Source: Escherichia coli | GTDB lineage: Bacteria; Pseudomonadota; Gammaproteobacteria; Enterobacterales; Enterobacteriaceae | Assembly (NCBI RefSeq): GCF_003334335.1 | Contig: NZ_QOWQ01000006.1 | Reading direction: 5' to 3' (one strand) | Length of the DNA: 64,000 bases | In this document: in pieces, positions 11,585 through 51,000 of the stretch | Layout of the letters: every line of letters begins with the position of its first letter | Numbering within the stretch: the first letter of the stretch is position 1 | Translations under genes and position numbers: made by a program | Notes under the pieces: generated by a model | Told to the model about the DNA's origin: nothing | What the model saw: only the letters and a program-made list of their open reading frames with translations | Database searches by the model: none

Positions 11585-11694
11585 TCTTCATACTCGCCCG
11601 AGGAGGGCGAGTATGGAATACCTTTCGATTTCTCTTTCGTTCCGGCTTATAATCCCCGGCCTTTGATTATTTTTTTATCATTTCTGGAAGCAAA

Positions 11695-13914
11695 ATGAGC
11701 TCTATCTCCCTGATCCAACCGGATCGCGACCTGTTCTCCTGGCCGCAGTACTGGGCCGCCTGTTTTGGACCGGCACCGTTTTTGCCGATGTCTCGTGAAG
11801 AGATGGATCAACTTGGCTGGGATAGCTGCGACATCATTTTGGTTACTGGCGACGCGTATGTCGATCACCCAAGCTTCGGGATGGCGATTTGCGGTCGTAT
11901 GCTGGAAGCGCAGGGCTTTCGCGTCGGGATCATCGCCCAGCCGGACTGGAGCAGCAAAGACGACTTTATGCGTCTGGGTAAACCGAATCTGTTTTTCGGT
12001 GTTACTGCTGGCAACATGGATTCGATGATCAACCGTTATACCGCCGATCGCCGTTTACGTCATGACGATGCCTACACGCCGGATAACGTCGCGGGTAAGC
12101 GCCCGGATCGCGCCACACTGGTTTATACCCAGCGTTGTAAAGAGGCGTGGAAAGATGTACCGGTGATCCTCGGCGGTATTGAGGCTAGTCTGCGCCGTAC
12201 CGCGCATTATGATTACTGGTCCGATACCGTGCGCCGTTCCGTGCTGGTGGATTCGAAAGCCGACATGCTGATGTTTGGTAACGGTGAGCGTCCGCTGGTG
12301 GAAGTGGCGCATCGTCTGGCGATGGGCGAGCCAATTAGTGAAATCCGCGATGTGCGTAATACCGCGATTATCGTGAAAGAGGCGCTGCCTGGCTGGAGCG
12401 GCGTGGATTCCACCCGTCTTGATACCCCTGGAAAAATCGACCCAATCCCGCATCCGTATGGTGAAGATTTGCCGTGCGCGGATAACAAACCGGTGGCACC
12501 GAAAAAGCAGGAAGCCAAAGCCGTAACCGTGCAGCCACCGCGCCCGAAACCGTGGGAAAAAACCTACGTGTTGCTGCCTTCTTTCGAGAAAGTGAAGGGC
12601 GATAAAGTGCTGTACGCCCATGCTTCGCGTATTCTGCACCACGAAACCAACCCAGGCTGTGCCCGCGCATTGATGCAAAAACACGGCGACCGCTATGTGT
12701 GGATCAACCCGCCTGCTATTCCGCTTTCTACCGAAGAGATGGACAGCGTTTTTGCGCTGCCATACAAGCGCGTGCCACATCCGGCCTATGGCAATGCCCG
12801 TATTCCGGCTTACGAAATGATCCGTTTTTCGGTCAACATTATGCGTGGCTGCTTTGGCGGCTGCTCTTTCTGTTCTATCACCGAGCACGAAGGGCGCATT
12901 ATTCAGAGCCGTTCCGAAGATTCGATCATTAATGAGATCGAAGCGATCCGCGACACCGTTCCAGGTTTTACGGGCGTGATTTCCGATCTTGGTGGGCCAA
13001 CTGCCAACATGTATATGTTGCGCTGCAAATCGCCACGCGCTGAACAAACTTGTCGCCGTTTGTCGTGCGTTTATCCGGATATTTGTCCGCACATGGACAC
13101 GAACCACGAACCAACGATCAACCTCTATCGCCGTGCGCGTGATCTGAAAGGCATTAAAAAGATCCTGATTGCCTCTGGTGTGCGTTATGACATAGCCGTA
13201 GAAGATCCGCGCTATATCAAAGAACTGGCGACCCATCACGTCGGCGGTTATCTGAAGATTGCCCCGGAACATACCGAAGAAGGGCCGTTATCGAAGATGA
13301 TGAAGCCGGGCATGGGCAGCTATGACCGCTTTAAAGAGCTGTTCGATACTTACTCAAAACAGGCAGGTAAAGAGCAGTATCTGATCCCCTATTTCATCTC
13401 CGCGCACCCCGGTACGCGTGATGAAGATATGGTGAATCTGGCGCTGTGGCTGAAAAAGCACCGCTTCCGCCTCGACCAGGTGCAGAACTTCTATCCGTCG
13501 CCGCTGGCGAACTCAACCACCATGTATTACACCGGGAAAAACCCGCTGGCGAAGATTGGTTATAAGAGCGAAGACGTCTTCGTACCGAAGGGCGACAAAC
13601 AGCGTCGTTTGCATAAAGCGTTGTTGCGTTACCACGATCCGGCAAACTGGCCGTTAATCCGCCAGGCGCTGGAAGCGATGGGCAAAAAGCATCTGATTGG
13701 CAGCCGTCGCGATTGCTTAGTGCCTGCGCCAACCATTGAAGAGATGCGTGAAGCTCGTCGCCAGAACCGCAATACCCGTCCGGCGTTGACGAAACATACG
13801 CCGATGGCGACCCAGCGTCAGACGCCTGCTACGGCAAAAAAAGCGTCGTCTACGCAATCTCGTCCGGTGAATGCTGGTGCGAAGAAACGGCCTAAAGCGG
13901 CGGTTGGACGTTAA
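11695..13914 (+). CDS. ygiQ: radical SAM protein YgiQ (UPF0313)
   Basis: 739-aa ORF with CxxxCxxC radical-SAM cysteine motif ([10 protein letters not shown]) and basic C-terminal tail. Confidence 0.9.
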
Positions 13915-38017: not shown

Positions 38018-38710
38018 CTAGTGATAACCACGCGCGGTCATAAAATCCGTAATCGCTTTTTCTGCATCAACCAACACCTGTTCCAGTGGCTGATTGGCAT
38101 CGATATCAACCAGTTGTGCACCACCAAAGGTTAACTGTGGCGTTATGGCAATCTTCCTCGCCAGCGATTCCCGTTTATGGTCGGGTTTACGTGCACAGGC
38201 AACTTCAAGGTCAACATTGAGTTTGATGACCAGATCAGGCTTATGGCTCGCCATCCAGTGAAACGCTTTACGTTCCTGGCTTGCCAGCCATGAGACAAAA
38301 CGACCACCTTCAACGTTAGGTGGGAACACCGTACCATCGTAAGCGCCAGGAATTTGGTCCTGAGGATAACGGTCGGTTAGAACAATTAACCCGCGACGAC
38401 GACAGGCAAGCATATGACGAAAGCGCAGTAAGCGACGGGCGACAAACGCTGTAATTACCAGCGCCGGAACTGGTCCAGGCAATTTTTTTGCTGTTTTCAC
38501 CTGATTTCGTTCAATTGTTTTATGTAAGGATTTTCCCATCAACGGTAATTTTGTCACTGCACGACCGACATTTCCGGCCTGTTTTCCTAAATGAACTCTT
38601 TCGGCAGCACCATATTTTTCGACAACGGTAATAAGATGTTCACACACCGTTGACTTGCCTGAACCATCGCTACCAATAACGGCAATTAATGGAGGTGTTA
38701 TTGACTGCAT
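38018..38710 (-). CDS. yghT: P-loop NTPase, predicted kinase-like protein YghT
   Basis: 230-aa ORF with N-terminal Walker [10 protein letters not shown]; shares TDRYPQ and RKPDH motifs with yghS and yghR. Confidence 0.85.
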
Positions 38711-38790
38711 GAATATATCCTTTAATTTAAATATCCATTAAAAATATTTATTTGGTTAATATGTTTTTATGAAAGCGTAATTCAGGTCAA

Positions 38791-38814
38791 TGTCACAATT
38801 AACCATTGTCACAA
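38791..38814. promoter_or_regulatory. direct repeat TGTCACAAT x2 in yghT/yghS divergent promoter region
   Basis: tgtcacaattaaccattgtcacaat; the second copy sits in the perfect palindrome ATTGTCACAAT. Confidence 0.3.
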
Positions 38815-38883
38815 TAAGGTTGAACGGATATTCTGAGCACGGACCACGTAATATTCAATACATTATTTACTGCCGGGTTTTTC

Positions 38884-39597
38884 GTGAATCAACGTAATAT
38901 GTCAATAATTAATTCCACGCCAGTGCGTGTTATTGCCATTGTAGGATGTGATGGTTCAGGTAAATCGACCCTCACGGCAAGCCTGGTAAATGAACTGGCA
39001 GCAAGAATGCCAACAGAACACATTTATCTCGGGCAATCGTCCGGGCGAATTGGCGAATGGATTTCACAGCTCCCTGTTATTGGCGCACCTTTTGGGCGTT
39101 ATCTGCGAAGTAAAGCGGCACATGTGCACGAAAAGCCCTCAACACCGCCTGGCAATATTACTGCACTGGTTATCTATCTGCTTTCCTGCTGGCGGGCGTA
39201 CAAGTTTCGCAAAATGTTGTGTAAAAGCCAGCAAGGCTTTCTGCTCATCACCGACCGCTACCCGCAGGTTGAAGTGCCGGGGTTTCGCTTTGATGGCCCG
39301 CAATTGGCAAAAACCACGGGCGGTAACGGTTGGATAAAAATGTTAAGGCAGCGCGAGCTGAAGCTGTACCAATGGATGGCATCTTATTTGCCCGTATTGT
39401 TGATTCGTCTTGGCATTGATGAACAAACCGCGTTTGCGCGTAAACCTGACCACCAACTGGCAGCGTTACAGGAAAAAATCGCCGTTACGCCGCAACTGAC
39501 ATTCAATGGCGCAAAGATCCTTGAACTGGATGGGCGACACCCCGCCGATGAAATTCTGCAAGCGTCACTACGCGCAATTCACGCCGCGCTTTCCTGA
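38884..39597 (+). CDS. yghS: P-loop NTPase, predicted kinase-like protein YghS
   Basis: 237-aa ORF (GTG start) with Walker A GCDGSGKST; paralog of yghT and yghR. Confidence 0.85.
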   Translation: MNQRNMSIINSTPVRVIAIVGCDGSGKSTLTASLVNELAARMPTEHIYLGQSSGRIGEWISQLPVIGAPFGRYLRSKAAHVHEKPSTPPGNITALVIYLLSCWRAYKFRKMLCKSQQGFLLITDRYPQVEVPGFRFDGPQLAKTTGGNGWIKMLRQRELKLYQWMASYLPVLLIRLGIDEQTAFARKPDHQLAALQEKIAVTPQLTFNGAKILELDGRHPADEILQASLRAIHAALS

Positions 39598-39628
39598 TCA
39601 CCAAAATGGATAGGGGATGATTTAACGA

Positions 39629-40387
39629 ATGGATGCACTACAAACTCAAACTGTTAATAGTACAACCGCGCCGCAGCCCAACTACATTCCGGGGCTGATT
39701 GCGGTGGTCGGGTGTGATGGCACCGGTAAATCCACACTGACCACCGACCTGGTGAAATCGCTGCAACAACACTGGCAAACCGAGCGGCGCTATCTGGGGC
39801 TGCTCTCCGGCGAAGACGGCGACAAAATCAAACGATTGCCGTTGGTTGGCGTCTGGCTGGAACGGCGACTGGCGGCCAAATCCTCGAAAACCCAAAGCAT
39901 GAAAACCAAATCTCCGGCGCTATGGGCGGCGGTGATTATGTACTGCTTCTCGCTGCGAAGAATGGCGAATCTACGCAAGGTTCAGCGACTGGCGCAAAGT
40001 GGCGTTCTGGTGGTCAGCGATCGCTTCCCGCAGGCTGAAATTTCGGGCTTTTATTATGATGGACCGGGGATTGGCGTCGAACGTGCGACCGGGAAAATCA
40101 GCATGTTTCTGGCGCAGCGCGAACGGCGTTTATACCAACAAATGGCGCAATATCGCCCGGAATTAATTATTCGCCTGGGCATTGATATTGAGACTGCCAT
40201 CTCCCGCAAGCCTGACCATGACTATGCCGAGCTGCAGGACAAAATCGGTGTCATGTCGAAGATTGGCTATAACGGCACAAAAATTCTTGAGATTGATTCC
40301 AGAGCGCCCTACAGCGAAGTGCTGGAACAGGCACAGAAGGCGGTTTCTCTGGTTGCCATCGTTTCTGACCGCCGAAGTTTAACTTAA
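39629..40387 (+). CDS. yghR: P-loop NTPase, predicted kinase-like protein YghR
   Basis: 252-aa ORF with Walker A GCDGTGKST and the paralog motifs SDRFPQ, SRKPDH. Confidence 0.85.
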   Translation: MDALQTQTVNSTTAPQPNYIPGLIAVVGCDGTGKSTLTTDLVKSLQQHWQTERRYLGLLSGEDGDKIKRLPLVGVWLERRLAAKSSKTQSMKTKSPALWAAVIMYCFSLRRMANLRKVQRLAQSGVLVVSDRFPQAEISGFYYDGPGIGVERATGKISMFLAQRERRLYQQMAQYRPELIIRLGIDIETAISRKPDHDYAELQDKIGVMSKIGYNGTKILEIDSRAPYSEVLEQAQKAVSLVAIVSDRRSLT

Positions 40388-40432: not shown

Positions 40433-41782
40433 TTGGCGGGTTTTAACATCAAACATTGGTTTGCAGATGGCGCGTTTCGCACCATTATTCGCAATAGCGC
40501 CTGGTTAGGCTCCAGTAATGTCGTGAGCGCCTTGCTGGGTCTGTTGGCGCTCTCGTGTGCCGGTAAAGGGATGACGCCCGCCATGTTTGGCGTACTGGTG
40601 ATTGTGCAATCGTACGCCAAGTCGATCAGCGATTTTATTAAGTTTCAGACATGGCAACTGGTGGTTCAGTACGGAACACCAGCATTAACCAACAATAATC
40701 CGCAGCAATTCCGCAATGTCGTCTCATTTTCCTTCTCGCTGGATATCGTCAGCGGCGCGGTGGCGATTGTCGGTGGCATTGCCTTACTGCCATTCCTTTC
40801 CCATTCATTAGGTCTGGATGACCAAAGTTTTTGGCTGGCAGCGCTCTATTGCACGCTCATTCCTTCAATGGCTTCCTCCACGCCGACCGGCATTCTGCGT
40901 GCGGTAGATCGCTTCGATTTAATTGCTGTACAGCAGGCGACGAAACCTTTTCTGCGCGCAGCGGGGAGCGTCGTAGCCTGGTATTTTGACTTTGGTTTTG
41001 CGGGTTTTGTTATTGCCTGGTACGTGTCGAATCTGGTTGGCGGCACCATGTACTGGTGGTTTGCCGCGCGCGAATTACGCCGCCGAAATATCCATAACGC
41101 CTTCAAATTGAATCTGTTTGAGTCTGCCCGATACATTAAAGGCGCGTGGAGTTTTGTCTGGTCAACCAACATTGCCCACTCCATCTGGTCGGCGCGTAAC
41201 TCGTGCAGCACAGTGTTGGTGGGGATCGTGTTAGGACCCGCTGCCGCCGGGTTATTTAAAATCGCCATGACATTCTTCGACGCCGCCGGAACGCCAGCGG
41301 GTTTGCTGGGTAAAAGTTTTTACCCAGAGGTGATGCGTTTAGATCCGCGCACCACCAGACCGTGGTTGTTAGGTGTGAAGTCCGGTTTACTGGCGGGCGG
41401 AATCGGTATTCTGGTGGCGCTCGCGGTGTTGATCGTCGGCAAGCCGCTCATTTCGCTGGTGTTTGGCGTTAAGTATCTCGAAGCGTATGACCTGATTCAG
41501 GTGATGCTGGGCGCAATTGTGATTTCGATGCTGGGCTTCCCTCAGGAGTCATTGCTATTGATGGCGGGAAAACAGCGCGCTTTTCTCGTGGCGCAAACCA
41601 TCGCCTCAATCGGCTACATCGTATTGCTGTTCATGTTCTGTCATCTGTTTGGTGTGCTGGGAGCAGCGTTTGCTTACTTCGGTGGGCAATGTCTGGACGT
41701 GGCGCTCTCGTTAATTCCAACCTTAAAGGCATTTTTTCAGCGCCATTCCTTGCTTTATAACGCAGCCGGAGAGAAATCCTGA
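40433..41782 (+). CDS. yghQ: MOP-superfamily (Wzx-like) flippase YghQ, full length
   Basis: 449-aa polytopic ORF; start codon uncertain (track start is TTG); stop overlaps the next gene start (TGATG). Confidence 0.8.
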   Translation: MAGFNIKHWFADGAFRTIIRNSAWLGSSNVVSALLGLLALSCAGKGMTPAMFGVLVIVQSYAKSISDFIKFQTWQLVVQYGTPALTNNNPQQFRNVVSFSFSLDIVSGAVAIVGGIALLPFLSHSLGLDDQSFWLAALYCTLIPSMASSTPTGILRAVDRFDLIAVQQATKPFLRAAGSVVAWYFDFGFAGFVIAWYVSNLVGGTMYWWFAARELRRRNIHNAFKLNLFESARYIKGAWSFVWSTNIAHSIWSARNSCSTVLVGIVLGPAAAGLFKIAMTFFDAAGTPAGLLGKSFYPEVMRLDPRTTRPWLLGVKSGLLAGGIGILVALAVLIVGKPLISLVFGVKYLEAYDLIQVMLGAIVISMLGFPQESLLLMAGKQRAFLVAQTIASIGYIVLLFMFCHLFGVLGAAFAYFGGQCLDVALSLIPTLKAFFQRHSLLYNAAGEKS

Positions 41783-42606
41783 TGATGAGAAAATATTTCC
41801 CGCTTGAGGCGAGCGAGCGTCTATTTGTTGCGATTGAAGAAGATGATGTCGTTGATGCACAGGTTAGTTTGCCGCCGACTATTGCACTAAGTTGTACCAC
41901 CGAAATCATTCATGATAATTACGCGTTATGCCTGCAATTCTGGCTCAATGGCGTTGATCGTCAGGAGTTACTGCGTTTAGTTCGCAAACAAGCCAAAGGC
42001 GATGAGCTGACTGCTGATGAGCGCAAACAATTTAAATACATGCGAGCGCGCTACAAGCACCTGCGTTTTGCGCAACGGCTGTATTTAAAGAAGCATCAGG
42101 CCGGATTTTTATTCGGCAAAACGACCGTTTTTCTGGGGCGTTTTCAGGACGGCTTTCGTAACGGTAAGAAAAATATTGTGTCGTATTACGGCAACCTGTT
42201 ACGGATTTATTTAAGCTCTCCGGTCTGGTCGTTGGTGAACTATTCATTACGCCATAGCCAGTTAGAAAGCGTAAGCAGTTTTATTGCCTATCGGCAAAAG
42301 CAAATGCATACCCTGAAAGAGATTATTGCCAAACCGCGACTAACCGGTAGGGAATTTCATGATGTGCGAAAAATCATCAGCCAGCAGGTTTCTTATTACG
42401 ACACCTTAAGATCGCTTGATCCTGAAAATAAAGAGGCGTTACAGATATCCCGCTTCCTCGCCGCCATTAATGGCCTGATGGGAGATAAACACGACGACAT
42501 GGTGGCGGATGATATGGAAAACCGCCAGTCGTATGATGCACCGGTGGCGCTGGATAGCGATATTCGTCAGCGCTTAGAGCTGCTGATTTCGCGTTTTCCG
42601 CTATAG
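41782..42606 (+). CDS. hypothetical cytoplasmic protein (274 aa), coupled to yghQ
   Basis: ORF MMRKYFPLEASERLFVAIEEDD...; 1-nt overlap with the yghQ stop; no motif I can recognise. Confidence 0.6.
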   Translation: MMRKYFPLEASERLFVAIEEDDVVDAQVSLPPTIALSCTTEIIHDNYALCLQFWLNGVDRQELLRLVRKQAKGDELTADERKQFKYMRARYKHLRFAQRLYLKKHQAGFLFGKTTVFLGRFQDGFRNGKKNIVSYYGNLLRIYLSSPVWSLVNYSLRHSQLESVSSFIAYRQKQMHTLKEIIAKPRLTGREFHDVRKIISQQVSYYDTLRSLDPENKEALQISRFLAAINGLMGDKHDDMVADDMENRQSYDAPVALDSDIRQRLELLISRFPL

Positions 42607-42614
42607 CCGGAGCA

Positions 42615-43178
42615 ATGATGTCATCTCGTTTGATTATTGCGTTGATTATCATGCTCTTAGCCCCGGGTGTGCAGGCACACAATTTCGTCACTGGCAAAAC
42701 GGTTACCCCTGTTTATATCCAGGAAGGCGGCGAGCTGCTTCTGAATAGCGACGACGAAATTCACTACCAAAAGTGGAACAGCACACAATTAGCGGGAAAA
42801 GTCCGCATTATTCAGTATATCGCCGGGCGTAAGTCGGCGAAGAAAAAGAACTCACTGTTAATTAAAGCGGTTGAAGCGGCAAACTTTCCGCAGGATCGTT
42901 TTCAGCCCACCACCATTGTGAACACCGATGATGCCATCTTTGGTACTGGCTATTTTGTTGTTGGCAAAATCGAAAAAAATAAACGCCGCTATCCGTGGGC
43001 GCAATTCGTTATTGACGGCAATGGACAGGGACGCGTTGCCTGGCGCTTGCCGGAGCAGAGTTCAACCATTCTGGTGCTGAATAAAGCCGGGCAAATTCAG
43101 TGGGCAAAGGACGGCAGCCTGACGCCGGAAGAGGTAGATCATGTCATTGCGTTGGCGCAGAAACTGATCAATGAATAA
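42615..43178 (+). CDS. periplasmic YtfJ/HI0045-like protein
   Basis: 187-aa ORF with signal peptide MMSSRLIIALIIMLLAPGVQA and motifs (AGKVRIIQYIAGR, TTIVNTDDAI, QWAKDGSLTPEEV) that I recall from YtfJ. Confidence 0.65.
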   Translation: MMSSRLIIALIIMLLAPGVQAHNFVTGKTVTPVYIQEGGELLLNSDDEIHYQKWNSTQLAGKVRIIQYIAGRKSAKKKNSLLIKAVEAANFPQDRFQPTTIVNTDDAIFGTGYFVVGKIEKNKRRYPWAQFVIDGNGQGRVAWRLPEQSSTILVLNKAGQIQWAKDGSLTPEEVDHVIALAQKLINE

Positions 43179-43208
43179 AAAACTCAAAGGATTGAGGGCG
43201 TTAGTGAG

Positions 43209-44279
43209 ATGAAGCTGGTTGAACACTACATCATGCGTGGTACGCGCCGTCTGGTGCTGATTATCGTCGGTTTTCTGATCTTTATTTTCGCCAGCTACTC
43301 CGCACAGCGTTATCTGACCGAAGCGGCAAATGGGACATTAGCTCTTGATGTTGTGCTGGATATCGTTTTCTACAAAGTACTGATTGCACTGGAGATGTTG
43401 TTACCTGTTGGTCTGTATGTGTCAGTTGGCGTGACGCTAGGGCAGATGTATACCGACTCGGAAATTACCGCTATCTCTGCGGCGGGGGGCAGTCCGGGAC
43501 GCTTGTACAAAGCCGTTCTTTATCTGGCGATACCGCTAAGTATTTTTGTCACCCTTCTGTCGATGTATGGTCGTCCGTGGGCTTATGCGCAGATTTATCA
43601 ACTGGAGCAGCAGTCGCAGTCGGAGCTGGATGTTCGCCAGTTGCGGGCAAAGAAATTTAACACTAACGATAACGGACGAATGATCCTTTCGCAGACGGTT
43701 GATCAGGATAATAATCGCCTGACTGACGCGCTGATTTATACTTCTACTGCCAATCGAACCCGCATTTTCCGCGCCCGTTCGGTTGATGTGGTTGACCCAT
43801 CACCCGAGAAACCGACCGTTATGTTGCACAACGGCACTGCCTATCTTATCGATCATCAGGGGCGTGATGACAACGAACAGATCTACCGTAATCTGCAATT
43901 ACATCTGAATCCGCTGGATCAAAGCCCTAACGTCAAACGCAAAGCGAAATCGGTCACGGAGCTGGCGCGCTCCGTCTTTCCAGCCGATCATGCCGAACTG
44001 CAATGGCGGCAAAGCCGTGGCCTGACCGCATTGTTGATGGCGCTGCTGGCCATTTCATTAAGTCGGGTAAAACCGCGGCAAGGGCGATTTTCAACGTTAT
44101 TGCCACTGACGTTGCTGTTTATTGCCATTTTTTATGGCGGTGACGTCTGCCGTACGCTGGTGGCTAACGGCGCGATTCCCCTCATTCCTGGTTTGTGGTT
44201 AGTACCCGGACTCATGCTAATGGGCCTGCTGATGCTGGTCGCACGCGACTTCTCTTTGCTGCAGAAATTTTCCCGATGA
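43209..44279 (+). CDS. LptF/LptG-family (YjgP/YjgQ) permease, first of pair
   Basis: 356-aa ORF; YTDSEITAISAAG and KPRQGRFSTLLP resemble the LptF motifs YTESEIT and NPRQGR; multiple TM segments with a large periplasmic loop. Confidence 0.75.
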   Translation: MKLVEHYIMRGTRRLVLIIVGFLIFIFASYSAQRYLTEAANGTLALDVVLDIVFYKVLIALEMLLPVGLYVSVGVTLGQMYTDSEITAISAAGGSPGRLYKAVLYLAIPLSIFVTLLSMYGRPWAYAQIYQLEQQSQSELDVRQLRAKKFNTNDNGRMILSQTVDQDNNRLTDALIYTSTANRTRIFRARSVDVVDPSPEKPTVMLHNGTAYLIDHQGRDDNEQIYRNLQLHLNPLDQSPNVKRKAKSVTELARSVFPADHAELQWRQSRGLTALLMALLAISLSRVKPRQGRFSTLLPLTLLFIAIFYGGDVCRTLVANGAIPLIPGLWLVPGLMLMGLLMLVARDFSLLQKFSR

Positions 44280-45355
44280 ATGTTTTCAGCCGCTATTTAA
44301 TCCGTCATCTCTTTCTCGGTTTTGCCGCCGCCGCAGGGCTATTGCTGCCGCTTTTTACCACCTTCAACCTGATTAACGAACTGGATGATGTCAGCCCGGG
44401 CGGTTATCGCTGGACTCAGGCGGTGCTGGTGGTGCTAATGACCTTACCGCGCACACTGGTCGAACTTTCGCCATTTATCGCCTTATTGGGAGGGATTGTC
44501 GGCCTGGGGCAGTTATCGAAAAACAGTGAGCTTACCGCCATTCGCAGCATGGGGTTTTCTATCTTCCGTATTGCACTGGTGGCGCTGGTTGCAGGGATAT
44601 TGTGGACTGTTTCGTTAGGCGCGATAGATGAGTGGGTAGCGTCGCCATTACAGCAACAGGCGTTGCAAATCAAATCGACCGCCACCGCGTTGGGGGAGGA
44701 CGATGACATTACCGGCAATATGCTGTGGGCCAGGCGTGGTAATGAATTTGTGACGGTGAAATCGCTGAACGAGCAGGGCCAGCCGGTGGGCGTGGAGATT
44801 TTTCATTATCGCGACGATCTCTCGCTCGAATCCTACATTTATGCACGCAGTGCCACCATTGAAGACGACAAAACGTGGATCCTGCATGGTGTGAATCATA
44901 AAAAATGGCTGAATGGCAAAGAAACGCTGGAAACATTAGATAATCTTGCCTGGCAATCGGCCTTCACCAGTATGGATCTTGAAGAGTTATCAATGCCGGG
45001 CAATACTTTTTCTGTCCGTCAGCTTAATCATTACATCCATTATTTGCAGGAAACCGGGCAACCCAGCAGCGAATACCGCCTTGCACTGTGGGAAAAACTG
45101 GGGCAACCCATCCTGACCCTGGCGATGATTTTGCTGGCTGTGCCGTTTACCTTTAGCGCCCCGCGCTCGCCAGGGATGGGTAGCCGTCTCGCTGTAGGTG
45201 TCATCGTTGGCTTACTCACCTGGATCAGCTATCAAATCATGGTCAATCTGGGATTGCTATTTGCGTTGAGCGCACCTGTTACCGCGCTCGGTTTACCGAT
45301 AGCGTTTGTGCTGGTGGCGTTGAGCCTGGTGTATTGGTATGACAGACAACATTAA
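44276..45355 (+). CDS. LptF/LptG-family (YjgP/YjgQ) permease, second of pair
   Basis: Start at MNVFSRYLIRHLFLGF via ATGA overlap with the upstream stop; LptG-like motifs (ELTAIRSMGFS, RSPGMGSRLAVG); the track ORF is extended 27 codons upstream. Confidence 0.75.
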   Translation: MNVFSRYLIRHLFLGFAAAAGLLLPLFTTFNLINELDDVSPGGYRWTQAVLVVLMTLPRTLVELSPFIALLGGIVGLGQLSKNSELTAIRSMGFSIFRIALVALVAGILWTVSLGAIDEWVASPLQQQALQIKSTATALGEDDDITGNMLWARRGNEFVTVKSLNEQGQPVGVEIFHYRDDLSLESYIYARSATIEDDKTWILHGVNHKKWLNGKETLETLDNLAWQSAFTSMDLEELSMPGNTFSVRQLNHYIHYLQETGQPSSEYRLALWEKLGQPILTLAMILLAVPFTFSAPRSPGMGSRLAVGVIVGLLTWISYQIMVNLGLLFALSAPVTALGLPIAFVLVALSLVYWYDRQH

Positions 45356-45356
45356 A

Positions 45357-45383
45357 CCCGCCGTGGCGCAACACCACGGCGGG
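45357..45383. terminator. bidirectional hairpin between the permease operon and the SPT-like gene
   Basis: cccgccgtgg-cgcaaca-ccacggcggg inverted repeat. Confidence 0.6.
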
Positions 45384-45459
45384 CTCACATTACTGCTTCA
45401 GAGTAGCAAATGCCTGAATGATGGCATCGATTTGCTCACGACTGTGAGCAGCGTTTACG

Positions 45460-46569
45460 CTACAGCGCAGCAGCGTGATGCCTGCAGGCGCGGCAGGTGG
45501 CAGGTGGCAGGATAAGATTCACATAAACGCCCAGCGAAATAAGCTCGCGCCAGATGCGTAAACCGTCCTCTTTCGAACCGATTATTACCGGCACTACCGG
45601 GCTAATATGTGAACTTAACTCATAACCCAGTTTTTGCAGACCGTCATACAGATGGTTGGCATTATCCATCAGCTTTTGCCGCAGCTCTGGTTGTGTGGCA
45701 ATAGTTCTTAACGACGAGCGCACGGTCGCAATGCAGGACGGAGAAGGAGAGGCGGTAAAAATATACGGGCGGCTGCCGTAGCGCAGCACTTCCATCGCTT
45801 CCGAACCGACAGCAAAACCGCCAATCGAGGCCAGACTTTTACTGAAGGTGCCAACGATAATATCCACATCATCTTCAACGCCGACAGCTTCAGCCAGTCC
45901 GCGCCCCGTTGCGCCTAACACGCCAAACGAATGCGCTTCATCGACAATCAAATAACCACCGAGACGACGTTTGATATCAACAATTTCCGCTAACGGCGCA
46001 ACGTCACCGAGCATGCTGTAGATACCCTCAACGATGATAATCGCCTCTTTCGCCCGTTCACCGAGGCGAACCATGCGCCGTTCCAGATCTTTAGCATCGT
46101 TATGGCGGAAACGAATAATTTCCGCGCCACCGAGAGAACAGGCGTCATAAATACTGGCGTGGCTGTCGGCATCCAGTAACACCACGGCGTTATGGTCGGC
46201 AAGTGCGCTGATGACGCCTAAATTAGCGGTATAACCGGTTGAAAAAACGATAGCGGTAGGGCGATTGAAAAACTCGGCAATCTCTTTCTCTAACGCCAGG
46301 TGCGGCGCATAACTGCCGTTTGCCATACGAGAACCGGTGGTGCCGGTACCTTGGGCCGCTAACGCGGCCTGACCTTCGCTGATGGCATCATGATTAAAGG
46401 TTAAACCGAGATAATTATTGGTCCCGGCCAGAATCACTTTTTTATTGCCGATCCGGCCTTCGGTGGCGGAATACACTTCATCAATACAGGTGCCAAACGG
46501 TGTTAACCCGTTGTCACTAAATTGCAGTCGCTCGCCAGCAAGGCGCGCATATTTATCGTATAGCCCCAT
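45460..46569 (-). CDS. serine palmitoyltransferase-like alpha-oxoamine synthase (PLP-dependent), 3' end apparently frameshifted
   Basis: 369-aa ORF with GTFSKS PLP-lysine motif and class-II aminotransferase fold; C-terminus TCRACRHHAAAL is atypical, and an alternative frame restores a canonical end at the TAA at 45390-45392. Confidence 0.8.
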   Translation of the reverse strand: MGLYDKYARLAGERLQFSDNGLTPFGTCIDEVYSATEGRIGNKKVILAGTNNYLGLTFNHDAISEGQAALAAQGTGTTGSRMANGSYAPHLALEKEIAEFFNRPTAIVFSTGYTANLGVISALADHNAVVLLDADSHASIYDACSLGGAEIIRFRHNDAKDLERRMVRLGERAKEAIIIVEGIYSMLGDVAPLAEIVDIKRRLGGYLIVDEAHSFGVLGATGRGLAEAVGVEDDVDIIVGTFSKSLASIGGFAVGSEAMEVLRYGSRPYIFTASPSPSCIATVRSSLRTIATQPELRQKLMDNANHLYDGLQKLGYELSSHISPVVPVIIGSKEDGLRIWRELISLGVYVNLILPPATCRACRHHAAAL

Positions 46570-46817
46570 TATTTATTCTCCAGCCATGGAAGTAGAGTTT
46601 CCATTAATTGCGCAGGGGTTTTGACATCCAGCAGAATATTAATAGGAATGGAAATATCGAATCTGTCTTCCAGCATCATTAAGAGATCCATCACTTTGAT
46701 CGACTCCAGGCCAAGATCGTTGACGAGATCGCTGTCGGGCTTAATTTCCACACCGTTTTCGACCAAATCCTGTAAACAGGAAAGGATGTAATCCATTACT
46801 ATTTCACGATTTACCAT
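46569..46817 (-). CDS. acyl carrier protein (phosphopantetheine-binding)
   Basis: 82-aa acidic ORF with DLGLESIKVMDL Ser-attachment motif; 1-nt overlap with the downstream SPT-like start. Confidence 0.8.
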   Translation of the reverse strand: MVNREIVMDYILSCLQDLVENGVEIKPDSDLVNDLGLESIKVMDLLMMLEDRFDISIPINILLDVKTPAQLMETLLPWLENK

Positions 46818-46848
46818 AGAAACGTTAACACACCTTTAAACAAGACAA

Positions 46849-47763
46849 TCAAAATAGCCCGTTGCGTAATGCGTGTTCCAGGCTAATCCCGGGAAACCAA
46901 TTAATATCTTCAGAAATACGGTTATTACTTGCCGACCAGTCGGCGTGGGTTAATTCACGAATTTTCGAGCGGGTCAGCATAGGTTCTTTACCTGCCAGGC
47001 GACTCAACGCGGTACTGATATCCGCAAGGCCGGTGAGTACCGGCAGAGGAATGCCAACCATTCGCACGGAACCGCAACGGGCGTCGGCGGCAAGTTGCTG
47101 TACGCGTTGCCAGTCATAGCCGCCGGCGACGCCATCGCATAATTCATAGGTTTGCGTCTGTATAGTTTCGGCGCTTAACCACTGACCCACTGCTTGCGCG
47201 AAATCGGTGACGTGCAGAAAAGAGAGCTGTGTATCTGGCGCACCAAGTCGTGGCAGCAGGCCGCGCAGCATCCAGTCAAACAGCGGTTTTAACTCTTTAT
47301 CGCCGGGACCATACACGGCTGTCGGGCGAAAAACGCCCAGCGTAATTTCGTCCGCCATTGCTGCCAGTCGTTGCTCGGCGACGTATTTGGATTTTGCATA
47401 CCAGGAGAGCTCGGGATGGCGCGCCGCCAGCGAAGAGATAAACAGAAAACGTTGGCAAAAGCCGCTCTCTTTTGCTGCTTGCATCAGGCGCAGGCTGCCG
47501 TCAACGTTACAGCGGGTGAAAATCTCTTCTTTGTGCCCGCGCACTTGCCCGGCGCAATGGACCACTACGCTGGCTCCGGCAACCAGCTCGCTAAGTGAAT
47601 GAGTATCTTCCAGCGAACCGCGCACCCAGGTGAGATTATCATTGACGTGAGCGCGGGCAGTACGCGTCAATGCGCGAACGTGAAAGCCGCGGGCGAGCAG
47701 GTTATCGATAATATATTTACCGATAAACCCGGTAGCGCCCGTCACCGCGACAGTTTGATTCAT
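46849..47763 (-). CDS. NAD(P)-dependent epimerase/dehydratase-family reductase (candidate 3-ketosphinganine/ceramide reductase)
   Basis: 304-aa ORF with VTGATGFIGKYI Rossmann motif and YAKSK catalytic dyad; 4-nt overlap with the upstream adenylase gene. Confidence 0.8.
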   Translation of the reverse strand: MNQTVAVTGATGFIGKYIIDNLLARGFHVRALTRTARAHVNDNLTWVRGSLEDTHSLSELVAGASVVVHCAGQVRGHKEEIFTRCNVDGSLRLMQAAKESGFCQRFLFISSLAARHPELSWYAKSKYVAEQRLAAMADEITLGVFRPTAVYGPGDKELKPLFDWMLRGLLPRLGAPDTQLSFLHVTDFAQAVGQWLSAETIQTQTYELCDGVAGGYDWQRVQQLAADARCGSVRMVGIPLPVLTGLADISTALSRLAGKEPMLTRSKIRELTHADWSASNNRISEDINWFPGISLEHALRNGLF

Positions 47764-49481
47764 GCCAGGGATTCCTGCACATTAAGACTGGCAGCATAAG
47801 CCTTCTGATAACGTTTTTTCGCTTCCGCACGGGCAGGCTTGCCGGAGGACGTTCGGGGAATACTGTGGGGCGGCAACAGATCGATAGCCGCGGTCACGCC
47901 AAATTCGCTTTGGATCCGTGCCGCCAGCGCGTGGATAAGCTGCCCGCGACGTTCTTCGTCGCTGATCCGACACTGGATCTGCAAAATGATTTTTTCCTGG
48001 GCGGTAACAAAAGCAATCGCATCGCCAGAATGAATTTCCGGTTCCTGTTCCGCTATATATTCAATATCCTGCGGCCAGATATTACGGCCACGAATAATAA
48101 TCAGATCTTTAATGCGTCCGGTGACATACAGATAACCGTCCAGCAGATAACCGAGGTCGCCGGTGTCTAACCAGCCCGTCGCGGCAATCTCGTCTTGCGA
48201 AACCTGGTCGCCAAAGTAACCGCTCATCAGACTGGGACCGGAGATGCAAATATGGCCTACCACACGTTCCGCGACCGGCATACCTGCTTCATTGCGGATT
48301 TCAATACCATGTTCCGGCAACGCTTTGCCGCAGTTGACGAAAGTCGATACGGCGCGTGTCTCTGCACCCGGCGCGACGGCTTTACCCTGATATTCGAGGA
48401 TGTCGCGATCCACTTCGTTAACCACAACCCCGGAGGCTTCATCAGAGAAGCTGACAGCCAGCGCATTTTCTGCCAGTCCGTAGCACGGCATGAAAGTTTT
48501 ATTGTCAAAGTTAACCTGACGGAAACATTCAGCGAATTGATGGAGTTGTTCTGCGGAGATGGGTTCTGCACCAATACCAGCGACGCGCCAGCAGGAAAGA
48601 TCCAGTTCAGCGAGATCTTTTTCATTCACGCGGCGCTGGCACAATTCATAGCCAAACGGCGGCGCAACGGAAACGGTGCCGCGATTTTTACTGATCAATT
48701 TAAGCCATTGCAGAGGACGCATGGCAAAATCCTGAGTGCGCAAATAATCTACTGAAAGCTGCGTGGCGACGGGGGTCAGGAGAAAGCCGACCAGTCCCAT
48801 ATCATGGTAGAAAGGCAGCCAGGAGACGCAGCGGTCGCCAGGGCGTAATTTAATGCCGTCGTGGCTTATAGCACGTAGATTAGCCATCACTTCGCGATGG
48901 GTGATAATGACGCCACGGGGAAAACGGGTGCTGCCGGAGGTGTACTGGAGGTAGGCGATATCGTTCGGAACTGGACGCTGGAGCGCAACATCGGCTTCCG
49001 GTAATGCCTTAAACCAGGCGTGGCTTAAAACATGTAATTCGGGGTTGTCATGCGTCGCGGCATTGACCAGTGGCAACCACTCATCACCAGTGATAATGGC
49101 TGCGGGCTGGCAACTTGCCAGTAAACCCTGCAATTTGGCGCTCCAGGAATCCCGCTGACCAACGCCCATTGGAATCGCCAACGGGACGGCGACTAAGCCG
49201 GCATACTGGCAGGCAAAAAAAGCCTCTACGAACTCGCTACTTGTTTCGGCAATCAGTGCCACGCGATCGCCTTTTTTCAGGTTCAGCGATAACAACCGCT
49301 TCGCACCAGCTTCGGCACGTGCTTTTAACGTCTGATATTCCAGTTGATCTTCAAGTTGGCAACGTCTGTCATAAAAATTCATTCCGGCGCTACTCAGAGC
49401 GGCGTAGTCCAAAGCATCAACAAGCGTTGGAAAATCGGCATAGCGCATAGGTAGGGAATGCGTAAAGATTTTATTAGACAT
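47760..49481 (-). CDS. fatty acyl-AMP ligase / acyl-ACP synthetase-like adenylating enzyme
   Basis: About 573 aa with AMP-binding core YTSGSTRFPRGV and TGDLGY motif; start uncertain (track starts at GTG 49490, ATG at 49481). Confidence 0.8.
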   Translation of the reverse strand: MSNKIFTHSLPMRYADFPTLVDALDYAALSSAGMNFYDRRCQLEDQLEYQTLKARAEAGAKRLLSLNLKKGDRVALIAETSSEFVEAFFACQYAGLVAVPLAIPMGVGQRDSWSAKLQGLLASCQPAAIITGDEWLPLVNAATHDNPELHVLSHAWFKALPEADVALQRPVPNDIAYLQYTSGSTRFPRGVIITHREVMANLRAISHDGIKLRPGDRCVSWLPFYHDMGLVGFLLTPVATQLSVDYLRTQDFAMRPLQWLKLISKNRGTVSVAPPFGYELCQRRVNEKDLAELDLSCWRVAGIGAEPISAEQLHQFAECFRQVNFDNKTFMPCYGLAENALAVSFSDEASGVVVNEVDRDILEYQGKAVAPGAETRAVSTFVNCGKALPEHGIEIRNEAGMPVAERVVGHICISGPSLMSGYFGDQVSQDEIAATGWLDTGDLGYLLDGYLYVTGRIKDLIIIRGRNIWPQDIEYIAEQEPEIHSGDAIAFVTAQEKIILQIQCRISDEERRGQLIHALAARIQSEFGVTAAIDLLPPHSIPRTSSGKPARAEAKKRYQKAYAASLNVQESLA

Positions 49482-49857
49482 ATACACCACGAAAAAATTG
49501 GATATCCAAAATAAAATGACAATAATGCGGTGGATTATATAGGCATAAAAGATAAATGAGATAGTATTTTCATCAGTGTGAAAATGAACATTGATTTAAA
49601 TAATGAGTTTGAGTTTTTTTGTTTTTATTGTGAATGATATTTAATTTATGAATATATTAAGAAGAAGCCTTGTCCGGTCGCCTTAAATCGACAAAAGGCA
49701 TTGTGGCGCTTCTGTGTAGTCTCTGACCTTATCGTAATCATTAATAAATACTATTTATTCGTCGTTTGTATTCATTGGGTTGATTATTAAGGTGCCGTTC
49801 GTTGCTGTTGCAACCTGTTTGTCACCGTTAATTATTTGTTACCCACAGAACAGAACT

Positions 49858-51000
49858 ATGGAATGCGATCTGCTGATGATTAAAATTGAAAAAGTAATTA
49901 ATAAAAATGACCTTAAGGCATTTATCGCTTTTCCGTCATCACTTTATCCCGACGATCCAAACTGGATACCCCCTTTATTCATTGAACGCAACGAGCATTT
50001 GTCTGCGAAAAATCCGGGGACGGACCATATCATCTGGCAGGCGTGGGTAGCAAAAAAAGCGGGGCAGATAGTTGGGCGTATTACCGCGCAAATAGATACC
50101 TTGCACCGCGAGCGTTACGGCAAAGATACCGGTCATTTCGGCATGATTGACGCCATTGATGATCCGCAGGTTTTTGCCGCGTTGTTTGGCGCAGCGGAAG
50201 CGTGGTTGAAGTCACAAGGTGCAAGTAAGATCAGCGGTCCTTTCAGCCTGAATATCAATCAGGAAAGCGGATTACTGATTGAAGGTTTTGACACACCACC
50301 CTGTGCGATGATGCCACACGGCAAACCGTGGTATGCCGCGCATATTGAACAACTGGGTTATCACAAAGGCATTGATTTACTGGCGTGGTGGATGCAGCGA
50401 ACCGATCTCACTTTCTCTCCGGCGCTAAAAAAACTGATGGATCAGGTGCGCAAAAAGGTGACCATTCGCTGCATCAATCGTCAGCGGTTTGCCGAAGAGA
50501 TGCAGATCCTGCGTGAGATTTTCAACTCTGGCTGGCAGCACAACTGGGGATTTGTGCCGTTTACCGAACATGAATTCGCGACCATGGGCGATCAACTTAA
50601 ATATCTGGTGCCGGACGATATGATCTATATCGCTGAGATTGATTCTGCACCCTGCGCGTTTATTGTCGGCTTGCCGAACATCAACGAGGCGATTGCCGAT
50701 CTGAACGGATCGCTCTTTCCCTTCGGCTGGGCAAAATTGCTGTGGCGTTTGAAAGTCAGCGGTGTGCGAACTGCGCGAGTACCGCTGATGGGCGTGCGCG
50801 ACGAGTATCAGTTCAGCCGCATCGGCCCGGTGATTGCGCTGTTATTGATTGAAGCCTTACGCGATCCGTTTGCCCGCCGGAAGATCGATGCGCTGGAGAT
50901 GTCATGGATCCTCGAAACCAATACAGGCATGAATAACATGCTGGAACGCATTGGGGCGGAGCCGTACAAGCGTTACCGATTGTATGAAAAGCAGATTTAA
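49858..51000 (+). CDS. yghO: YghO, intact (candidate N-acyltransferase; pseudogene in K-12)
   Basis: About 380 aa from MECDLLMIKIEK (track ORF starts at TTG 49780); divergent from the lipid operon; start uncertain. Confidence 0.7.
   Translation: MECDLLMIKIEKVINKNDLKAFIAFPSSLYPDDPNWIPPLFIERNEHLSAKNPGTDHIIWQAWVAKKAGQIVGRITAQIDTLHRERYGKDTGHFGMIDAIDDPQVFAALFGAAEAWLKSQGASKISGPFSLNINQESGLLIEGFDTPPCAMMPHGKPWYAAHIEQLGYHKGIDLLAWWMQRTDLTFSPALKKLMDQVRKKVTIRCINRQRFAEEMQILREIFNSGWQHNWGFVPFTEHEFATMGDQLKYLVPDDMIYIAEIDSAPCAFIVGLPNINEAIADLNGSLFPFGWAKLLWRLKVSGVRTARVPLMGVRDEYQFSRIGPVIALLLIEALRDPFARRKIDALEMSWILETNTGMNNMLERIGAEPYKRYRLYEKQI

What the first reader, a model, noticed from the sequence alone, without database searches (positions are those of the whole stretch)
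41782..42606. Unannotatable 274-aa protein translationally coupled to the flippase
The ORF shares one nucleotide with the yghQ stop codon, so it is very likely expressed with it. It is hydrophilic and rich in Arg/Lys, and has no nucleotide-binding, PLP or transferase motif that I can see. It may be a regulator, a chaperone for the export machinery, or an unrecognised enzyme such as a head-group transferase.
Basis: seen in the sequence. Interest (0 to 1): 0.45.

Follow-up and report, generated by a model that had tools for sequence, protein, structure and literature searches.

The report
CHAD-fold partner of sphingolipid flippase
The "unannotatable" 274-residue E. coli protein is a real, conserved gene whose predicted structure matches the CHAD fold (a polyphosphate-binding helical module), and it is almost always encoded with a lipid flippase and two or three kinase-like proteins in the bacterial sphingolipid locus, which points to an unstudied phosphate-handling step in making or exporting these lipids.

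Summary
ORF 41782-42606 (+) starts at an ATG that shares one base with the yghQ stop (TGATG). It has its own Shine-Dalgarno, encodes a soluble basic protein, and is under strong purifying selection (dN/dS about 0.07).

The locus is the E. coli sphingolipid cluster (spt, acpR, cerR, aasR, yghO, LptF/G paralogues), which K-12 lost through an IS5-associated deletion. Among 74 related loci from four proteobacterial orders, 64 have a YghQ-type flippase directly upstream, mostly with overlapping stop and start codons. In 68 there are YghR/S/T-type dTMP-kinase-fold proteins nearby.

My best inference is a non-catalytic, phosphate-polyanion-binding partner of these kinases and the flippase. The ligand is unknown: polyphosphate, or a phosphorylated lipid head group. 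"Paralogous dTMP-kinase-like genes next to a CHAD gene" also describes the archaeal PPK3 polyphosphate kinase operon.

Verdict: new variant of a known kind; moderate interest.

The parts
41782..42606 (+). The 274-aa ORF: a soluble, basic, all-alpha protein with a predicted CHAD-like fold (two four-helix bundles). RefSeq calls it 'hypothetical protein' WP_000984978.1; UniProt calls it 'Ybl138'.
41768..41784 (+). Coupling junction: Shine-Dalgarno GGAGAG (41768-41773) inside the 3' end of yghQ, then TGATG, where the yghQ stop (41780-41782) and the ORF start (41782-41784) share one base.
   Evidence: overlap conserved in 49 of 66 related junctions
42031..42069 (+). Basic helix motif 1, residues 84-96 (FKYMRARYKHLRF). 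K85, R88, R90, K92 and R95 are basic in at least 59 of 69 family representatives.
42133..42150 (+). Motif LGRFQD, residues 118-123. G119 and D123 are invariant. It pairs with basic motif 1 in the first bundle.
42355..42390 (+). Basic helix motif 2, residues 192-203 (FHDVRKIISQQV). H193 and R196 are invariant and K197 is basic in 67 of 69. This is an H-x-x-R pattern like the H-x-x-R-x-x-x-R polyphosphate-contact motif of CHAD domains.
42466..42495 (+). Motif INGLMGDKHD, residues 229-238. N230, G234 and H237 are nearly invariant and D238 is invariant. It is the second-bundle counterpart of LGRFQD.
40433..41782 (+). yghQ, full-length 449 aa (K-12 has a truncated 355-aa copy). It is a MOP/Wzx-type flippase-like membrane protein, directly upstream and translationally coupled.
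38018..38710 (-). yghT, a P-loop kinase of the dTMP-kinase superfamily with Walker A, DRYPQ and RKPDH motifs.
38884..39597 (+). [not shown]
39629..40387 (+). yghR, the third paralogous dTMP-kinase-fold protein (DRFPQ variant).
42615..43178 (+). YtfJ-family protein with a signal peptide, 8-11 nt downstream of the ORF. It is co-conserved in Enterobacterales.
43209..44279 (+). LptF paralogue (a second copy, LptF2).
44276..45355 (+). LptG paralogue (LptG2), with a 4-nt overlap with lptF2. It is the last gene of the + strand run.
45353..45387 (.). A 16-bp GC-rich hairpin between the convergent lptG2 and spt genes, likely a bidirectional terminator.
45460..46569 (-). spt, serine palmitoyltransferase. 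It scores above the NCBIfam cutoff, but here its 3' end is frameshifted by a 7-bp duplication.
46569..49490 (-). acpR (specialised ACP), a cerR-like NAD-dependent reductase and aasR (acyl-ACP synthetase). These are ceramide-pathway genes.
49858..51000 (+). yghO, the N-acyltransferase listed as the E. coli counterpart of the bacterial ceramide synthase CC_1154.

Best explanation
The ORF encodes a cytoplasmic, roughly 32-kDa, non-catalytic helical protein with the CHAD fold. This is the double four-helix bundle that in characterised members binds inorganic polyphosphate along conserved Arg/Lys/His surfaces. The subfamily is a dedicated partner of a YghQ-type MOP flippase and of two or three YghR/S/T-type dTMP-kinase-fold P-loop kinases. 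In E. coli and its relatives the module sits inside the ceramide-synthesis and LptF2/G2 export locus.

Proposed mechanism (inferred, not shown): at the cytoplasmic face of the inner membrane the protein uses its two conserved basic helices to bind a phosphate polyanion. That ligand could be polyphosphate serving the kinases as donor or regulator, or the phosphorylated head group the kinases build on a ceramide-based lipid. It thereby couples the kinase step to flipping by YghQ. Tight translational coupling would set its amount relative to the flippase.

Shown here: gene reality, predicted fold, conserved basic motifs, and gene neighbourhood. Inferred: ligand, partners and order of events.
For: Fold:
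- The AlphaFold2 model has pLDDT 91.9 and pTM 0.88, with 11 helices.
- Foldseek against AFDB50 finds relatives at 26-41% identity with TM at least 0.9, named 'CHAD domain-containing protein', in Sphingomonas, Acetobacter, Komagataeibacter, Zymomonas and P. veronii.

Sequence:
- CHAD (PF05235) is the only recurrent Pfam hit among relatives: 16 of 69 at E<=0.1, best 2.5e-5, and 13 of 26 in a distant/fusion set.
- Thirteen positions are basic in at least 80% of 69 representatives. They are concentrated in two helices (K85/R88/R90/K92/R95 and H193/R196/K197), each followed by a G-x-x-x-D motif.
- The two halves align in register (hhalign P = 0.0027). This fits the pseudo-twofold CHAD architecture and its H-x-x-R-x-x-x-R polyphosphate contacts (PMC6537752).

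Context, among 74 related loci with enough flank:
- 64 have YghQ directly upstream, 68 have at least one YghRST-like kinase, 65 have at least two, and 43 have spt within 10 kb.
- In Acetobacteraceae the gene directly follows a YghT-like kinase. One gammaproteobacterial MAG has two copies flanked by three kinases and no flippase hit on its 10.9-kb contig.
- Stop/start overlap with the flippase gene occurs in 49 of 66 junctions.

Kinases: YghS is dTMP-kinase-fold and all three keep the Walker A, DR(Y/F)PQ and RKPDH motifs.

Precedent: in Sulfolobus, two 'thymidylate kinase' paralogues next to a CHAD gene form the polyphosphate kinase PPK3 (PMC12995831). The CHAD domain of YgiF enhances that enzyme's activity on polyphosphate (PMC6537752).

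Locus identity: spt scores above the NCBIfam cutoff. E. coli BL21 Spt, AcpR and AasR were shown to be active (PMC9386255). The Caulobacter sphingolipid region likewise has a MOP flippase and LptF2/G2 (PMC11324152).
Against: - The E. coli protein, the 23 Enterobacterales homologues and the family consensus give no Pfam CHAD hit even at E<=10.
- A profile-profile comparison with a YgiF-CHAD alignment found nothing (E 0.39).
- So CHAD homology rests mainly on a predicted structure plus weak hits in relatives.
- No ppk, ppx or CYTH gene is in the neighbourhood, so a link to polyphosphate itself is not shown.
- The invariant D123, D238 and near-invariant H105, H237 are not explained by simple polyanion binding and could mark a metal or catalytic site.
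- Some distant relatives carry signal peptides or lipoprotein leaders. A cytoplasmic polyphosphate ligand cannot apply to them.
- The Caulobacter sphingolipid cluster, as described in PMC11324152, works without such a gene.
- No binding, interaction or lipid data exist for this protein. The literature searches found nothing.
Confidence: 0.5

Rival explanations
1. It is an enzyme. The conserved His/Asp set (H105, D123, H193, H237, D238) would form a metal-dependent active site for a head-group transferase, pyrophosphatase or phosphotransferase that modifies the phosphorylated lipid before flipping.
For: D123, H193 and D238 are invariant and H105 and H237 nearly invariant across 69 representatives. 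The cluster lacks an obvious head-group transferase. PMC6537752 cites an earlier speculation (Iyer and Aravind 2002) that CHAD domains bind divalent cations through conserved histidines.
Against: No catalytic fold or motif appears in any library. The best structural matches are non-enzymatic CHAD modules. Lorenzo-Orts et al. found no conserved metal site in CHAD structures. G-x-x-x-D after each basic helix looks like a repeated structural motif.
Confidence: 0.15
2. It is a scaffold or regulatory subunit. It assembles or activates the YghR/S/T kinases, as the non-catalytic rPPK3 subunit activates cPPK3, or tethers them to YghQ, without binding any phosphate polymer itself.
For: Co-occurrence with the kinases is very tight (68 of 74 loci). 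It persists in several loci where the flippase gene is not directly upstream (Acetobacteraceae, L084). Kinase-kinase fusion and duplications in the module suggest a multi-subunit assembly.
Against: A pure scaffold does not explain 13 conserved basic positions laid out in the CHAD pattern. No interaction data exist.
Confidence: 0.2
3. It is an ordinary polyphosphate-granule CHAD protein (a phosin) that merely lies next to the lipid genes and has no role in sphingolipid biology.
For: CHAD fold. Characterised stand-alone CHAD proteins bind polyphosphate and localise to granules.
Against: The neighbourhood is conserved across four orders and start/stop overlap with the flippase gene is maintained. 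In E. coli its prevalence (4166 genomes) tracks spt (4130) rather than yghS (4677). No ppk or ppx is adjacent.
Confidence: 0.07
4. It is a transcriptional or post-transcriptional regulator of the cluster, one of the first reader's options.
For: It is small, basic and helical.
Against: No DNA-binding domain hit. The top fold matches are not regulators. CHAD domains tested did not bind nucleic acids. Translational coupling inside a structural operon is atypical for a regulator.
Confidence: 0.03

Closest known systems
CHAD domain (Pfam PF05235): stand-alone 'long' CHAD proteins such as Chlorobium CtCHAD (3e0s), Ricinus RcCHAD (6qv5) and Streptomyces PptA (6rn5)
   Different: The E. coli protein and the family consensus have no significant Pfam match. 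The first-bundle histidine is replaced by Lys85. A family-specific acidic N-terminal segment is present (residues 17-25, EEDDxVD). The genomic partners are a MOP flippase, lipid-cluster genes and glycosyltransferases, not PPK1/PPK2/PPX/CYTH. Polyphosphate binding is untested.
Archaeal PPK3 polyphosphate operon (Sulfolobus acidocaldarius saci_2017-2021: sixA, ppx, cPPK3, rPPK3, CHAD; PMC12995831)
Caulobacter crescentus sphingolipid synthesis/transport region CC_1152-CC_1168 (PMC11324152, PMC9393093)
   Same: spt, acpR, aasR, cerR, bCerS/yghO, a MOP-family putative flippase (CC_1166) and second copies of LptF/LptG are clustered together. Anionic phosphorylated ceramides are the products in Caulobacter.
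   Different: Caulobacter uses an LCB5-type ceramide kinase (CpgB), a Tam41-like protein (CpgC) and a CDP-alcohol transferase (CpgA). No YghRST-type kinase and no CHAD-like gene is described in that region. E. coli has none of cpgA-C. The head-group chemistry in E. coli is therefore probably different, and it is unknown.
E. coli YgiF (CYTH triphosphatase fused to a short CHAD domain, PDB 5a60/5a61)
   Different: YgiF has the 'short' CHAD without the central pore. No profile-profile similarity was found. In YgiF the domain is fused to the enzyme, whereas here it is a separate polypeptide coupled to a flippase.

Membership tests
CHAD domain (PF05235 / polyphosphate-binding module) | Two four-helix bundles related by pseudo-twofold symmetry | tested here: met
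   [not shown]
CHAD domain (PF05235 / polyphosphate-binding module) | Significant match to the family's sequence profile | tested here: not met
   No CHAD hit at E<=10 for the E. coli protein, for 23 close homologues or for the family consensus. Among wider relatives, 16 of 69 reach E<=0.1 and one reaches 2.5e-5. UniProt names several relatives 'CHAD domain-containing'.
CHAD domain (PF05235 / polyphosphate-binding module) | Conserved basic residues (H-x-x-R-x-x-x-R and partners) forming the polyphosphate-binding surface | tested here: inconclusive
   The pattern is present in sequence: H193-x-x-R196-K197, with a basic residue at +8 in 57 of 69 relatives (Gln in E. coli), and K85-x-x-R88-x-R90-x-K92-x-x-R95. 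I could not inspect the model coordinates, so their position on a common surface or pore is not verified.
CHAD domain (PF05235 / polyphosphate-binding module) | Binds inorganic polyphosphate | not testable with these tools
   This needs purified protein and a binding assay such as the GCI assay in PMC6537752.
CHAD domain (PF05235 / polyphosphate-binding module) | Encoded with, or fused to, polyphosphate-metabolising enzymes (CYTH/TTM, PPK, PPX) | tested here: not met
   No ppk, ppx or CYTH gene lies within the locus or among the cluster homologues mapped in 79 related loci. The neighbours are dTMP-kinase-fold proteins of unknown substrate.
PPK3-type polyphosphate kinase operon | Paralogous dTMP-kinase-superfamily genes adjacent to a CHAD gene | tested here: met
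   yghT, yghS and yghR lie within 3.8 kb of the ORF. YghS has the dTMPK fold. At least two kinases are present in 65 of 74 related loci.
PPK3-type polyphosphate kinase operon | Kinases belong to the PPK3 clade and have polyphosphate kinase activity; ppx is in the operon | tested here: inconclusive
   [not shown]
Bacterial (Rhodobacteria-type) sphingolipid gene cluster | spt with adjacent acpR, plus aasR, a cerR-type reductase and a bCerS-type N-acyltransferase | tested here: met
   spt scores 552.6 bits against a 500-bit cutoff for NF047599. RefSeq annotation covers the neighbours. The BL21 orthologues ECD_02850-02854 are listed, and three were assayed, in PMC9386255. Caveat: spt in this window carries a 3' frameshift.
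Bacterial (Rhodobacteria-type) sphingolipid gene cluster | The 274-aa protein is a described component of the pathway | tested here: not met
   It is not among the Caulobacter CC_1152-1168 products. It is not mentioned in the E. coli BL21 work. The held library returned nothing for its names or locus tags.

The most novel reading that the evidence does not exclude
The YghR/S/T kinases, the CHAD-fold protein and YghQ together build and export a new class of anionic outer-membrane lipid: a ceramide (or glycosyl-ceramide) carrying an oligo- or polyphosphate head group. The dTMP-kinase-like enzymes would act like PPK3 and extend a phosphate chain on the lipid. The CHAD-fold protein would hold the growing chain and hand it to the flippase. 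LptF2/G2 would then move it to the outer membrane. This would be a lipid-anchored polyphosphate made by most natural E. coli but missing from K-12.
Probability: 0.08. Interest if true: 0.85.

Novelty: new variant of a known kind. Interest (0 to 1): 0.5.

Why it matters
About three quarters of complete E. coli genomes carry an intact-looking sphingolipid locus. K-12 lost it, so it has barely been studied. Only the first steps (Spt, AcpR, AasR) have been assayed, and nobody knows what complex lipid E. coli makes from ceramide or how bacterial sphingolipids cross the inner membrane.

This work assigns a phosphate-polymer-binding fold to the one protein in the locus that had no annotation. It also shows that the protein forms a conserved module with three kinase-like proteins and a flippase across four proteobacterial orders. 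That gives concrete, testable hypotheses for both questions: phosphorylated head groups, a possible role for polyphosphate, and a dedicated flippase adaptor.

It would also extend CHAD domains from polyphosphate metabolism into envelope lipid biogenesis. It flags YghR/S/T as candidate lipid or polyphosphate kinases rather than the 'dTMP kinases' they are currently annotated as.

Tried and rejected
**Sequence libraries**
- Pfam, NCBIfam, PADLOC and the PDB sequence search gave nothing for the protein or for a 23-sequence profile.
- A defence-system reading was rejected. The PADLOC hits on the neighbouring kinases cover only the P-loop.

**Naming leads**
- The SEED-style name 'TPR repeat protein clustered with yghQ' is not supported. 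There are no TPR hits, and the fold matches are CHAD structures.

**Equivalence to Caulobacter CpgC**
- CpgC was described as having 'no conserved domains' in PMC9393093, so I considered it a possible counterpart.
- I rejected this on the published domain description, not on a sequence comparison: CC_1161 is described as Tam41-like in PMC11324152 S1 Text.

**Sequence-level tests of CHAD homology**
- hhalign of the 69-sequence family profile against a YgiF-CHAD alignment found nothing (E 0.39). YgiF's short CHAD is itself atypical and did not retrieve other CHAD entries in the PDB, so this is a weak negative.
- A Pfam scan of the family consensus gave no CHAD hit, only a faint PhoU match at E 1.3.

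**Related-locus scan**
- The first attempt, with the 69-sequence alignment, failed for lack of conserved stretches. It succeeded with a 22-sequence alignment.

**Genomic context of distant and fusion relatives**
- P0175 lies on contigs too short to be informative.
- P0231 lies among unrelated genes.

**Literature**
- Searches for yghQ, yghO, yghR/S/T, Ybl138, the BL21 locus tags, and 'sphingolipid' with 'CHAD' returned nothing on this protein.
- The chlorhexidine and silkworm papers mention only the K-12 remnant genes.

**Promoter and terminator scan**
- It was not above shuffle expectation and shows only the hairpin after lptG2.
Full report
**1. The observation**

- The window is a non-K-12 Escherichia coli chromosome segment: gss, pitB, yghT, yghS, yghR, yghQ ... 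yghO, glcC.
- The ORF at 41782-42606 (+) encodes 274 aa. Its ATG (41782-41784) shares one base with the yghQ stop (41780-41782), and a GGAGAG Shine-Dalgarno lies 8 nt upstream.
- RefSeq annotates the same frame as a hypothetical protein.
- The product is soluble and moderately basic: GRAVY -0.41, pI 9.3, 15% Arg+Lys, no hydrophobic segment.
- It matches nothing in Pfam, NCBIfam, PADLOC or PDB sequences.
- It is clearly a gene. It occurs in 4166 of 5426 complete E. coli genomes, and dN/dS against other Escherichia lineages is 0.06-0.08. About 290 clusters at 50% identity exist in public data.

**2. The locus**

- The neighbours on the + strand are a full-length YghQ (449 aa, MOP/Wzx-like), the ORF, a YtfJ-family periplasmic protein, and second copies of LptF and LptG.
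- Convergent to these are spt, an acyl carrier protein, an NAD-dependent reductase and a fatty acyl-AMP ligase, followed by yghO.
- This is the E. coli sphingolipid cluster. BL21(DE3) Spt, AcpR and AasR have been shown to make 3-oxo-sphinganine, and yghO is listed as the ceramide-synthase counterpart (PMC9386255).
- The Caulobacter region CC_1152-1168 has the same logic, including a putative MOP flippase and LptF2/G2 (PMC11324152).
- K-12 MG1655 has an IS5 between a truncated yghQ and yghO and lacks everything from the ORF to aasR. That explains why the protein has never been studied.
- In E. coli the ORF's prevalence (4166 genomes) tracks spt (4130) rather than yghS (4677).

**3. What the protein is**

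- An AlphaFold2 model built on 23 homologues is confident (pLDDT 91.9, pTM 0.88) and all-helical.
- Foldseek against AFDB50 retrieves relatives at 26-41% identity with TM at least 0.9. UniProt names them 'CHAD domain-containing protein', in Sphingomonas, Acetobacter, Komagataeibacter, Zymomonas and Pseudomonas veronii. Gluconobacter relatives are left unnamed.
- CHAD domains are two four-helix bundles with pseudo-twofold symmetry. They bind inorganic polyphosphate through conserved basic residues, including an H-x-x-R-x-x-x-R helix (PMC6537752).
- In this family, 13 positions are basic in at least 80% of 69 representatives. They cluster in two helices, K85/R88/R90/K92/R95 and H193/R196/K197. 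Each is followed one helix later by an invariant G-x-x-x-D (G119/D123; G234/D238).
- The two halves align in register (hhalign P = 0.0027).
- Sequence-level support is weak, and I state it as such:
  - The E. coli protein and the family consensus do not hit Pfam CHAD at all.
  - Among wider relatives CHAD is the only recurrent family, but mostly at marginal E-values: 16 of 69 at E<=0.1, best 2.5e-5, and 13 of 26 in a distant set.
  - A profile-profile comparison with the atypical short CHAD of YgiF was negative.
- I therefore call it CHAD-fold with high confidence. I consider it probably, not certainly, a divergent member of the family.

**4. What it goes with**

- A scan of one genome per species returned 79 loci. 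I mapped homologues of the window's cluster genes onto them.
- Of 74 loci with enough upstream sequence:
  - 64 have a YghQ homologue directly upstream;
  - 68 have at least one YghR/S/T-type kinase within 10 kb, and 65 have at least two;
  - 43 also have spt.
- The arrangement holds in Enterobacterales, Xanthomonadales (Luteibacter, Rhodanobacter, Dyella) and Sphingomonadales.
- In Acetobacteraceae the gene directly follows a YghT-like kinase, with GT4/GT2 glycosyltransferases and a MOP flippase nearby.
- A gammaproteobacterial MAG has two copies flanked by three kinases.
- The four loci with neither partner are two Pluralibacter loci and two second copies in genomes that also have the standard locus.
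- The flippase stop and the ORF start overlap in 49 of 66 junctions, 31 of them as ATGA. Start codons were assigned heuristically. So coupling is an evolutionarily maintained feature, not an accident of this strain.
- The lineages involved are documented sphingolipid producers, or carry spt in the same locus.

**5. The kinases**

- YghR, YghS and YghT are paralogues in the dTMP-kinase superfamily. The profile hits thymidylate kinases in the PDB at E about 1e-6, below the NCBIfam cutoffs.
- 2plr_A has the same sequence as 5h70. PMC12995831 identifies 5h70 as the homologue of the Sulfolobus PPK3 catalytic subunit.
- That paper shows that two 'thymidylate kinase' paralogues encoded next to a CHAD gene form a polyphosphate kinase. 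It used CHAD adjacency as a predictor of such enzymes.
- The signature here is the same, but ppx is absent. YghS is no closer to the PPK3 homologue than to true thymidylate kinases, so I treat this as a lead, not a classification.
- All three E. coli paralogues keep the Walker A, DR(Y/F)PQ and RKPDH motifs.

**6. Mechanism**

- Shown: a real, conserved, cytoplasmic protein; a predicted CHAD-type fold with conserved basic helices; an obligatory genomic partnership with a MOP flippase and dTMP-kinase-fold proteins; embedding in the ceramide and LptF2/G2 locus.
- Inferred: it binds a phosphate polyanion and couples the kinase step to flipping. By analogy, the YgiF CHAD domain enhances that enzyme's activity on polyphosphate.
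- The ligand could be polyphosphate used by, or regulating, the kinases. It could instead be the phosphorylated head group that the kinases place on a ceramide-based lipid, which YghQ would then flip and LptF2/G2 extract.
- I give this adaptor model about 0.5. A pure protein scaffold for the kinases gets 0.2, a cryptic His/Asp enzyme 0.15, a bystander polyphosphate-granule protein 0.07, and a regulator 0.03.
- Points against the polyphosphate version:
  - no ppk, ppx or CYTH gene is nearby;
  - some distant relatives have signal peptides or lipoprotein leaders, including roughly 980-aa proteins that fuse an APH/choline-kinase-like domain to two copies of this domain.

**7. Comparison and novelty**

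- The fold is known, and databases already label some relatives as CHAD.
- What is not described in anything I could search is this subfamily's dedicated association with a flippase, three kinase-like proteins and the sphingolipid locus.
- The Caulobacter pathway uses unrelated head-group enzymes (CpgA, CpgB, CpgC), and no such gene is described in its cluster. The E. coli-type head-group chemistry is therefore likely different.
- I classify the finding as a new variant of a known kind, with moderate interest (0.5).
- The most novel reading not excluded is a lipid-anchored oligo- or polyphosphate built by this module, at a probability of about 0.08.

**8. Caveat for this strain**

- spt in the window carries a 7-bp tandem duplication that shifts the frame of its last 30 or so codons.
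- In 4104 complete E. coli genomes the best match to the 111-base stretch spanning the duplication is 93.7% (104 of 111, as expected without it), so none appears to carry it.
- It is either a private inactivating mutation or a sequence error. If it is real, the pathway may be inactive in this isolate even though the ORF itself is intact.

Noticed in passing
window 45487-45500 (within spt, - strand gene 45460..46569): A 7-bp tandem duplication (GGCAGGT on the + strand) shifts the frame of the 3' end of spt, giving a 369-aa ORF instead of 390 aa. The best match to the 111-bp stretch spanning it in 4104 complete E. coli genomes is 93.7%, the value expected without the duplication, so none appears to carry it. 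It is a private inactivating mutation or a sequence error.
   Followed up: yes
L088 (NC_000913.3 3130146-3131340) versus window 41500-49500: K-12 MG1655 has IS5 between a truncated yghQ (355 aa) and yghO. It lacks the ORF, ytfJ2, lptF2, lptG2, spt, acpR, cerR and aasR. The standard laboratory strain is therefore a natural deletion mutant of this whole module but keeps yghR/S/T.
   Followed up: yes
hits H1 (NZ_CP100525.1), H13, H14: IS1 insertions interrupt the ORF homologue in strain LH13-b and spt in two other clinical strains. The cluster is repeatedly hit by IS elements in E. coli.
   Followed up: no
P0231, P0237 (about 980 aa; loci L006, L007); also P0179, P0215, P0225, P0269: Distant relatives carry signal peptides or a lipoprotein leader. 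Two fuse an APH/choline-kinase-like phosphotransferase domain to two tandem copies of this domain. This is a kinase plus CHAD-like pairing again, but apparently exported.
   Followed up: partly
L086 (Bombella sp., about 10856-12220, - strand); L047 and L054 (Luteibacter): In Bombella two YghT/R-like kinases appear fused into one 482-aa ORF. In Luteibacter the CHAD-like gene is tandemly duplicated. Both suggest a multi-subunit assembly.
   Followed up: no
window 38018-40387 (yghT, yghS, yghR): PGAP names YghT and YghS 'dTMP kinase' and YghR 'ATP-binding protein', although all three score far below the NCBIfam dTMP-kinase cutoff (24-32 bits against 83). Each has a long hydrophobic-then-basic helix (YghS residues 91-116) between the P-loop and the DRYPQ motif, which could be a membrane or lipid contact; I did not check whether true thymidylate kinases lack it. 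The 'dTMP kinase' name is probably wrong.
   Followed up: partly
window 41782-42606 versus 45560-46569 across E. coli genomes: The ORF is much more variable within E. coli than spt: 509 genomes fall at 90-95% nucleotide identity, against 2 for spt. It nevertheless remains under purifying selection.
   Followed up: no
window 41830-41856 (residues 17-25, AIEEDDVVD): A conserved acidic N-terminal segment (D22 is acidic in 61 of 69 representatives). I saw no counterpart described for canonical CHAD proteins. It could be an intramolecular mimic of the anionic ligand or a partner-binding site.
   Followed up: no
P0032: A 280-aa E. coli protein that is 85% identical over the full query is named 'type II secretion system protein GspM' and carries a PF04612 hit. 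It is probably a mis-assembly or annotation artefact.
   Followed up: no
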